Below, one piece after another: positions 57,811-58,747 of a DNA stretch of 64,000 bases (positions are counted from its first letter, which is position 1; every line of letters starts with the position of its first letter). The DNA lies in the NCBI GenBank assembly GCA_951406725.2, contig OX597819.1, forward strand, positions 77,934,001-77,998,000, given 5' to 3'. Origin of the DNA: Octopus vulgaris (taxonomy: Eukaryota). The notes beneath the pieces were generated by a model. It made no database searches. It was not told the DNA's origin and saw nothing but the letters and a program-made list of their open reading frames with translations. Both the position numbers and the translations under genes were made by a program.

Positions 57811-58124
57811 AATGAAAATAAAGATTAAAAATATGCCGAACAGTTTCCTATTCATTGAAATGTGAGGAATATCTTGAATACATTTATGTCTTTTGATATA
57901 TACCGTTAAAAATACAAAGTACTGACGATCATCCATTCAACTCACTACGAACATGAACAATTTCAGAATTCATTTATTCATATAAAGCCTAATATACCTA
58001 TTTCTTTACTACCCGCAAGGGACTAAACACAGAGGGGACAAACAAGGACAGACAAATGTTCATATCGCGCCATGATATAAGACAGAGAGACAAAATAAAC
58101 TAGCAAAAAAGATTTTACTGGATA

Positions 58125-58183
58125 ATTCAAGATCCTGGATTTCTGGCTTTGCTTCCAATAACCTCTGCCTTCGTCAGTTGAAT
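58125..58183 (-). ncRNA. Type-I hammerhead motif (left arm)
   Basis: Exact reverse complement of 58428-58486. Confidence 0.75.
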
Positions 58184-58427
58184 ATGCCAGATGGGTAAAT
58201 AACTACAAATATATATACAGAACATACGTTATACTTACATATACGAACGACCCTACATACATATATATGCACGTATGTACAAGACCAGTCCAAATTCCCC
58301 CGCCACTGGTCTTTGCCCGACTGGTTTTGTACATACGTGCATATATATGTATGTAAGGTCGTTCGTATATGTAAGTATAACGTATGTTCTGTATATATAT
58401 ATTTGTATTTATTTACCCATCTGGCAT

Positions 58428-58486
58428 ATTCAACTGACGAAGGCAGAGGTTATTGGAAGCAAAGCCAGAAATCCAGGATCTTGAAT
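58428..58486 (+). ncRNA. Type-I hammerhead motif with intact core
   Basis: ATTCAA-CTGACGA-A-GGC-(19)-GCC-A-GAAA-TCCAGGA-TC-TTGAAT; 6-bp stem I, AUC site at 58480. Confidence 0.75.
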
Positions 58487-58706
58487 TATCCAGTAAAATC
58501 TTTTTTGCTAGTTTATTTTGTCTTTCTGTCTTATATCATGGCGCGATATGAACATTTAAGGTGGTTTTTGGAGTCAGGGTCTTGACTGCTATTTCGGCAT
58601 GGTGGTATCTTTCAGATACCCTTATTTATAGTTTTAAATAATTATTACCTTTGTATGGTATTTATTCCCATGCTGGACACTTGATAAGATCGATATTTAA
58701 ATATCG

Positions 58707-58747
<41 letters not shown>

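What the first reader, a model, noticed from the sequence alone, without database searches (positions are those of the whole stretch)
58054..58557. Very young 0.5-kb hairpin element with an intact hammerhead in both arms
Seen: the arms are nearly identical. Each has CUGACGA/GAAA, a 6-bp stem I (AUUCAA/UUGAAU), a GGC/GCC stem II and a near-palindromic stem III (AUCC-A-GGAU) with an AUC site. Transcription from either strand would yield one ribozyme plus its antisense in a long dsRNA stem. This is the best candidate in the window for a still-active ribozyme. A stem III with a 1-nt loop implies dimeric cleavage (inference from known PLE and other minimal hammerheads).
Basis: partly seen in the sequence, partly recalled or inferred. 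Interest (0 to 1): 0.75.

Follow-up and report, generated by a model that had tools for sequence, protein, structure and literature searches.

The report
Two-armed Penelope-type retrozyme insertion scar
This DNA hairpin is one mutated insertion of a scattered, roughly 485-base non-coding repeat, likely copied onto both ends of a chromosome cut by a Penelope-type jumping-gene enzyme; its hammerhead RNA motif has an unusual core shared by the whole family, and this copy is predicted to be a poor, not a prime, candidate for self-cutting.

Summary
The hairpin and both hammerhead motifs are real, but the hairpin is not the element. It is a head-to-head pair of 5'-truncated copies (58054-58305 minus; 58319-58712 plus, ending in (TA)n) of a ~485-nt non-coding repeat with at least 227 genomic hammerheads. 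Copies end at two fixed sites ~95 nt apart. Of 43 back-to-back junctions, all 31 with both ends at these sites have one of each. That is the Penelope 'inverted copy plus one-sided tail' footprint, and it fits priming from both cut DNA strands; the scan noted this rule before in other genomes. The hammerhead fold is backed by compensatory changes in four helices. This copy has a private stem-II mismatch and no tandem partner, and read-through RNA makes the antisense first, so 'best active candidate' is not supported. 'Very young' is only relative: the arms differ by 1.8%. About 92 of 100 listed copies read through the cut site. Cleavage is untested.

The parts
57998..58056 (+). 5' piece of an unrelated, very common dispersed repeat, joined to the left arm through a 3-5 nt shared stretch; the join probably removed the arm's outer ~75 nt and its (TA)n target
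   Evidence: The other copies printed (at least 24 stretches) continue differently after this point; no other of 114 segments ends at unit position 76; the deletion is inferred
58054..58305 (-). Left arm: inverted, 5'-truncated copy of the repeat unit (unit positions ~307 to 76), expected to have been the tail-less (site A) arm
   Evidence: the site A assignment is inferred from the family rule
58118..58190 (-). Hammerhead motif of the left arm, identical to the right one; predicted cut between 58131 and 58130
58306..58318 (.). 13-nt filler at the head-to-head junction, made of short pieces of the element itself
   Evidence: sequence; junction comparison
58319..58712 (+). Right arm: 5'-truncated direct copy running through the hammerhead, site A and the tail to just short of site B
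58421..58493 (+). Type I hammerhead motif: stem Ib 58421-24/58490-93, stem Ia 58428-33/58481-86, CUGACGA 58434-40, A58441 facing A58467, stem II 58442-44/58464-66, inner helix 58448-51/58457-60 (broken by G58449), GAAA 58468-71, palindromic stem III 58471-79, predicted cut after C58480
58620..58636 (+). End site A of the family (motif shared with site B)
   Evidence: 44 of 114 segments end here
58637..58712 (+). Tail between end sites A and B, with a near-perfect palindrome at 58683-58713; the last ~18 nt of the family tail are missing here
58711..58745 (.). (TA)n target tract
   Evidence: sequence; nearly all family 3' ends abut (TA)n-like DNA

Best explanation
The hairpin is one insertion of a non-coding, ~485-nt hammerhead-bearing repeat (a non-autonomous Penelope-type element or retrozyme) made of two back-to-back truncated copies, likely produced when a Penelope-type enzyme cut a (TA)n tract on both strands and each cut end primed copying of the same RNA. 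Shown: the unit and its tandem joint; two fixed 3' end sites ~95 nt apart; the one-of-each pairing of those ends; (TA)n flanks; same-subfamily arms; free 5' break points; the covarying hammerhead fold with an A facing an A at the base of stem II. Inferred: one DNA end starts reverse transcription at site A and the other at site B, both stop at random, and the two cDNA ends are joined with 0-6 nt overlap or a short filler. The template was mostly uncut or re-ligated RNA. The ribozyme's family role is probably dimer-dependent, perhaps protein-assisted processing of multi-unit transcripts. This copy is most likely a dead scar whose ribozyme would be buried in its own antisense if read through.
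For: Unit period 485 and 471 nt in two copies; 21 of 153 segments exceed one unit, longest 795 nt. 132 of 153 segments end at A or B. Of 43 back-to-back junctions, 31 are A+B, none A+A or B+B, and 12 have an end elsewhere; P about 4e-10 if ends were independent. In 16 of the 31 the tail-less arm reaches further 5' than the tailed arm, so neither arm can be a copy of the other. Arms swap subfamily alleles at 12 of 229 sites against 39% between insertions. An RT+GIY-YIG family in the same genome (781-aa frame) shows the same layout of hammerhead, two end sites around a palindrome, then (TA)n; by my reading 15 short-ended and 4 tailed among the 19 of 30 loci where the motif was found. Literature: inverted 5'-truncated copy and one-sided tail (PMC8557442, PMC3846280, passages); both strands cut and extended, two RT start sites define the tail, hammerhead cleavage dispensable in vitro (PMC11167929, parts 1-2 of 4); opposite-strand hammerheads 100-700 bp apart (PMC4209133, parts 1-2 of 4). 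Both-sided changes in 4 of 20 pairs in four helices, 95% of cells paired against at most 48% for slid controls; position 7 varies C/U/A 29/24/8.
Against: No autonomous partner was found. None of 30 GIY-YIG loci matches the unit beyond (TA)-rich DNA in the output I saw, which was cut, and no PLE coding remnant continuous with a family copy was seen, so the enzyme class rests on the footprint. The tail (~95 nt) is longer than the 30-40 bp in print. In vitro, PMC11167929 saw no strand difference in RT start site, so the one-of-each rule is not explained by that work. No target-site duplication can be read here. Loci were picked by similarity or pattern, not at random, and 6 of 8 were picked for opposite-strand hammerheads. 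The covariation cells are a few subfamily events counted many times; the count of pairs with both-sided change did not beat the shuffles (55/500 and 324/500), and stem III shows no both-sided change. No RNA evidence either way.
Confidence: 0.85

Rival explanations
1. One reading: a young, self-contained hairpin element whose hammerhead is still active, cutting as a dimer.
For: The most similar arms of 25 comparisons; all catalytic core letters present; palindromic stem III favours an intermolecular duplex. A U-U mismatch at the same stem II position still allows cleavage in an axolotl retrozyme (PMC7229834, section 15).
Against: No other sampled locus has these boundaries. Private G58449, absent from all contigs covering the mirror position in three runs and from 60 other aligned copies. 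Predicted misfolding; antisense made first on both strands; no same-strand partner.
Confidence: 0.07
2. The inverted arm arose by self-priming or fold-back of one strand (as proposed for rotifer PLEs), or by later palindrome formation, rather than by two priming events.
For: PMC3846280 (passages) proposes self-priming on an antisense template. In 15 of 31 pairs the short arm is nested in the tailed arm. Four rare changes are shared by both arms here, which conversion could explain.
Against: In 16 of 31 pairs neither arm contains the other; junctions are asymmetric with 0-6 nt overlap or filler, not palindromes; simple fold-back does not predict the strict A+B ends.
Confidence: 0.1
3. The family hammerhead is no longer a catalyst; the fold is kept as a protein-binding or promoter-linked structure, and the A-A change marks loss of cleavage.
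For: About 92 of the first 100 listed copies read through the cut site, and only 2 begin exactly there. Hammerhead mutants do not affect insertion in vitro (PMC11167929). U-U is reported as the most active mismatch at this pair (PMC3088659, section 8). A sub-lineage lacking the 5' A still spread (L123, L155).
Against: Core letters stay fixed while position 7 and loop II vary across subfamilies down to ~70% identity; several unrelated families keep core plus extra base; re-ligated circles would also read through the site. Part of the core constancy comes from pattern-based selection.
Confidence: 0.3

Closest known systems
Insertions of endonuclease-bearing Penelope-like elements with inverted 5'-truncated copy and one-sided tail (PMC8557442; PMC3846280; PMC11167929)
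   Same: Head-to-head inverted truncated copy, tail at one end only, AT-rich/(TA)n target, type I hammerhead upstream of the two end sites.
   Different: No RT/GIY-YIG frame; the unit closes on itself at ~485 nt; tail ~95 nt rather than 30-40; no autonomous parent identified.
Metazoan non-LTR retrozymes (PMC7229834, passages and section 15; bioRxiv 10.64898/2026.07.22.740005, parts 1-2 of 5)
   Same: Short non-coding unit with a type I hammerhead, more-than-unit copies, low GC, proposed non-autonomous derivation from PLEs.
   Different: Mostly dispersed sub-2-unit insertions; no long array found in 98 loci; circular RNA not tested; unit longer than the 350-390 bp mussel repeats.
PLE hammerheads with bulged base after A9 and palindromic helix III (PMC4209133, main text parts 1-2 and supplement file 2 parts 1-2)
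   Same: CUGANGAH, palindromic stem III suited to dimers, type I topology.
   Different: An extra base (A) also lies between stem II and GAAA. One of the 56 rows of that paper's Fig. S3 reads AGAAA (by line order probably the Cotesia bracovirus PLE; columns are not kept, so this is uncertain), and the passages I read do not remark on it. The family also has a long two-part stem I and a two-part stem II.
Hammerheads with a U-U mismatch at the base of stem II (PMC3088659; axolotl HHR_Amex2 in PMC7229834)
   Same: First pair of stem II is a mismatch in a natural, high-copy ribozyme.
   Different: Here A-A (also C-A, U-A, C-U, U-U in other local groups); activity is unmeasured.

Membership tests
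Type I hammerhead ribozyme | Core CUGANGA, GAAA, NUH | tested here: met
   position 7 varies C/U/A
Type I hammerhead ribozyme | Stems I and II supported by compensatory change | tested here: met
   Both-sided changes at one pair in each of stems Ib, Ia, II and the inner helix; few independent events
Type I hammerhead ribozyme | Stem III | tested here: inconclusive
   98-100% paired but no both-sided change; monomer unstable, dimer favourable by energy
Type I hammerhead ribozyme | Watson-Crick pair closing stem II next to the core (10.1-11.1) | tested here: not met
   A faces A in 60 of 61 aligned copies (about half pattern-selected); only 3 genomic copies have another base before GAAA, all G, none C
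Type I hammerhead ribozyme | Match to an Rfam hammerhead model | tested here: not met
   None at E<=10 in 58000-58620
Type I hammerhead ribozyme | Self-cleavage | not testable with these tools
   Only contigs available; no pile-up of 5' ends at the site
EN+ Penelope-like element insertion | Adjacent inverted 5'-truncated copy | tested here: met
   43 of 98 loci have a back-to-back junction
EN+ Penelope-like element insertion | Tail at one end only | tested here: met
   31 of 31 classifiable pairs are A+B; this locus has lost its left end
EN+ Penelope-like element insertion | AT-rich or microsatellite target | tested here: met
   3' junctions listed
EN+ Penelope-like element insertion | Target-site duplication | tested here: inconclusive
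   (TA)n flanks hide it; left end deleted here
EN+ Penelope-like element (autonomous) | RT plus GIY-YIG reading frame, or sequence link to one | tested here: not met
   No long frame in the unit; no link seen to 30 GIY-YIG loci; only 150 of 6136 candidates were scored
Non-LTR retrozyme | Short non-coding unit in tandem with a type I hammerhead per unit | tested here: met
   Period 485/471 nt; two same-strand hammerheads in L155 and L156; this locus has one per strand
Non-LTR retrozyme | Monomeric linear and circular RNAs in tissue | not testable with these tools
   No holder on record as RNA
MITE / foldback DNA transposon | Fixed terminal inverted repeats shared by copies | tested here: not met
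   Inner break points differ at every locus; 45 of 76 loci have no inverted partner

The most novel reading that the evidence does not exclude
This genome holds an overlooked, long-lived class of working hammerheads with an extra base on both sides of stem II (a 1x1 loop, mostly N facing A), kept by at least three unrelated retrozyme-like families and missed by Rfam; and their insertions record a Penelope enzyme dimer priming the two cut DNA ends at two fixed sites of one non-coding RNA.
Probability: 0.4. Interest if true: 0.6.

Novelty: new variant of a known kind. Interest (0 to 1): 0.37.

Why it matters
The hairpin itself is an expected Penelope-type scar. Two things carry over. First, a natural hammerhead core variant at the most conserved pair outside stem III, present in over 200 copies and escaping Rfam; if it cleaves, ribozyme searches in animals undercount such elements. 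Second, a clean in-genome data set (31 of 31 pairs) tying a non-coding retrozyme-like repeat to two-ended Penelope priming. That bears on the open questions of who mobilises animal retrozymes and how inverted PLE ends form, and it gives a short RNA with two mapped start sites for an in vitro test. The second point repeats what the scan saw in other genomes.

Tried and rejected
Rfam over the whole window returned microsatellite-driven miRNA-type hits among the 150 of 470 rows shown, and no hammerhead locally. Search for an autonomous parent: GIY-YIG family search, DNA comparison, ORF scans and tblastn of family loci found none continuous with a copy. A short peptide-like frame after the hammerhead ends in a stop in this copy and was not pursued. 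A preferred 5' stop or start site near unit positions 300-330 was considered and rejected: the hazard of ending is 0.03-0.26 per 20 nt with no clear peak. A pile-up of 5' ends at the cut site was not seen (the pattern excludes one first letter; 100 of 307 listed). Circle versus linear multimer template could not be told apart: tandem units swap subfamily alleles at 6 of 45 sites, mostly L016. Non-canonical (rewired) topology, suggested by earlier notes on this genome, is not needed: stems Ia and Ib close the motif as type I. Sequencing runs: no RNA holder listed; family pieces lay in contigs under three organism labels; no listed piece bridged this locus's junctions - no evidence on expression or polymorphism. 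Literature: searches for A10.1, G10.1/C11.1, mismatch terms and hammerhead+octopus showed no description of an A-A variant in the listings. The paper on small PLE hammerhead variants that cleave as dimers (Lunse et al., cited in PMC6765202) is not held and may describe it. File 1 of the PMC4209133 supplement could not be searched, its figures came as scrambled text, and PMC9901934 passages gave no value for this double change.

Full report
Observation. The inverted repeat is there: 58054-58290 pairs with 58319-58557 with 4 substitutions and one 2-nt indel. Both arms carry the same 78-nt hammerhead-like motif, with the predicted cut after 58480 on the + strand. Rfam reports no hammerhead at E<=10 in 58000-58620. 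The window is G000:C6:77934001-77998000 of a 2.8-Gb genome. I did not establish the species; earlier scan notes and my recall of the flanking repeats point to a cephalopod.

The element is not the hairpin. Searching the genome with the right arm gave 1443 first-look candidates, 40 scored; the DNA beyond 58557 gave 3300. Exact patterns gave 145 and 227 matches with 0 in reversed controls. Other copies continue past 58557 exactly as the window does, and upstream they lead back into that same sequence: the unit closes on itself with a period of 485 and 471 nt in two copies. No long frame lies in it. Of 153 mapped segments in 98 distinct loci (duplicate fetches dropped), 21 exceed one unit, the longest 795 nt. 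In the window the + copy runs 58319 to ~58712 into (TA)n, the - copy runs 58305 to 58054, and a 13-nt filler lies between. The left end is fused to the first ~57 nt of an unrelated common repeat through a 3-5 nt shared stretch, most simply a later deletion.

Insertion footprint. 3' ends fall at two sites ~95 nt apart that share a motif, and they abut (TA)n-like DNA: 61 at A, 71 at B, 21 elsewhere. 43 of 98 loci have a back-to-back junction. 31 are A+B, none A+A or B+B, and 12, including this locus, have an end elsewhere; P about 4e-10 under independence. The loci were chosen by similarity or pattern, and 6 for opposite-strand hammerheads, but none for their ends. The arms of one insertion share subfamily alleles (12 swaps in 229 sites against 39% between insertions). 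In 16 of 31 pairs neither arm contains the other, and junctions show 0-6 nt overlap or short filler. This argues for two reads of the RNA and against simple fold-back. An RT+GIY-YIG family in this genome has the same arrangement of hammerhead, two end sites around a palindrome and (TA)n, but I saw no sequence link to our unit. In print: inverted 5'-truncated copy with a one-sided tail (PMC8557442, passages; PMC3846280, passages); both strands cut and extended, two RT starts bounding the tail, hammerhead cleavage dispensable in vitro (PMC11167929, parts 1-2 of 4); opposite-strand hammerheads 100-700 bp apart (PMC4209133, parts 1-2 of 4); retrozymes as non-autonomous PLE derivatives (bioRxiv 10.64898/2026.07.22.740005, parts 1-2 of 5). 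Earlier scan notes report the one-tailed/one-tail-less rule in another genome; I had it first.

The hammerhead. I aligned 61 of 72 motif-bearing stretches (dropped: the duplicate arm and 10 truncated or gapped ones) and a 34-row set chosen to span subfamilies. Pairing is 96.6% and 95.3% against at most 51% for slid controls. Both-sided changes occur in stem Ib, stem Ia, stem II and the inner helix, but they are few events, the number of such pairs does not beat the shuffles, and stem III has none. Position 7 is C/U/A in 29/24/8.

The non-canonical core. An A follows CUGANGA and another A precedes GAAA, so stem II starts with A facing A. This holds in 60 of 61 rows. Genome-wide only 3 copies have another base before GAAA, all G. 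Older subfamilies and at least two sequence-distinct groups with a 4-bp stem II have the same extra base. Among 37 matches of that short form the 3' base is A in 31, U in 5, C in 1, and the 5' base is A 14, C 12, U 10, G 1 (my count; the pattern demanded one base on each side). The 5' bulge is the known PLE trait (PMC4209133). U-U at this position is known and active (PMC3088659 section 8; PMC7229834 section 15). One of 56 rows in the PMC4209133 supplement reads AGAAA. My searches listed no paper on A-A, but the most relevant paper is not held.

This copy. Both arms carry G at 58449/58162 where 55 of 61 rows have C paired with G, and contigs covering 58162 in three runs all have the family base. 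Predicted stem II probability is 0.01 against a median of 0.45 for 33 other rows and 0.95-0.99 for L003 and L025. A read-through transcript from either side makes the antisense first and folds as a -405 kcal/mol duplex, and a centre-out transcript is also predicted not to form stem I. These are energy-model predictions. Arm divergence is 4/218, the lowest of 25 comparisons (median of others 5.7%). Yet four rare changes are shared by both arms, and the nearest sampled copy is 5.4% away in the arm region and 2.4% in the tail. So either its source was itself a diverged copy or the arms were homogenised. If the rate implied in PMC13282606 (passages; 0.09 for 25 million years) applied, 1.8% would mean roughly 2-3 million years; this is conditional on the species.

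Use of the cut site. Among the first 100 of 307 copies that contain the sequence just after the site, I count 2 beginning exactly at it, 6 breaking off within the 14 nt before it and 92 reading through. Templates were therefore mostly uncut or re-ligated. No RNA data could decide this.

Verdict. An expected Penelope-type two-armed insertion of an undescribed-looking non-autonomous, retrozyme-like family. The residual interest is the family-wide core variant and the strict end rule, not this copy's activity. Interest 0.37; new variant of a known kind.

Noticed in passing
L166, L168, L171, L174 and L167, L169, L170, L172, L173: Two further old repeat groups with short-stem type I hammerheads that also have an extra base before GAAA; L166 has an inverted partner and L171 a ~325-nt tandem.
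   Followed up: partly
L091, L092 and L031-L060: An abundant, apparently young PLE family with an upstream ~350-aa frame, a 781-aa RT+GIY-YIG frame, a U3-A8-type hammerhead core and two (TA)n end sites ~37 nt apart.
   Followed up: partly
L123:1465-1541, L155:1524-2306: A sub-lineage lacking the A after CUGANGA; both units of the 1.6-mer L155 share it and an altered stem III, so it was in the template.
   Followed up: partly
L016:1429-2108: The two tandem units of one insertion differ at three subfamily-diagnostic hammerhead positions, hinting at a mixed linear template or conversion.
   Followed up: partly
window 33797 (+), 33589 (-), 7208 (-), 10979 (+), 1179 (-): Other hammerhead-like cores of different repeat families; 33589 and 33797 form another head-to-head pair about 200 nt apart, the latter with a damaged GAAA.
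   Followed up: no
L023:979-1216: A common short repeat inserted into a family copy with an apparent ~17-nt target duplication.
   Followed up: no
window 30885 (-) and 20436 (-): Open frames of 187 and 172 aa that look like fragments of a LINE reverse transcriptase and a Tc1-type transposase (judged by eye, recalled motifs).
   Followed up: no
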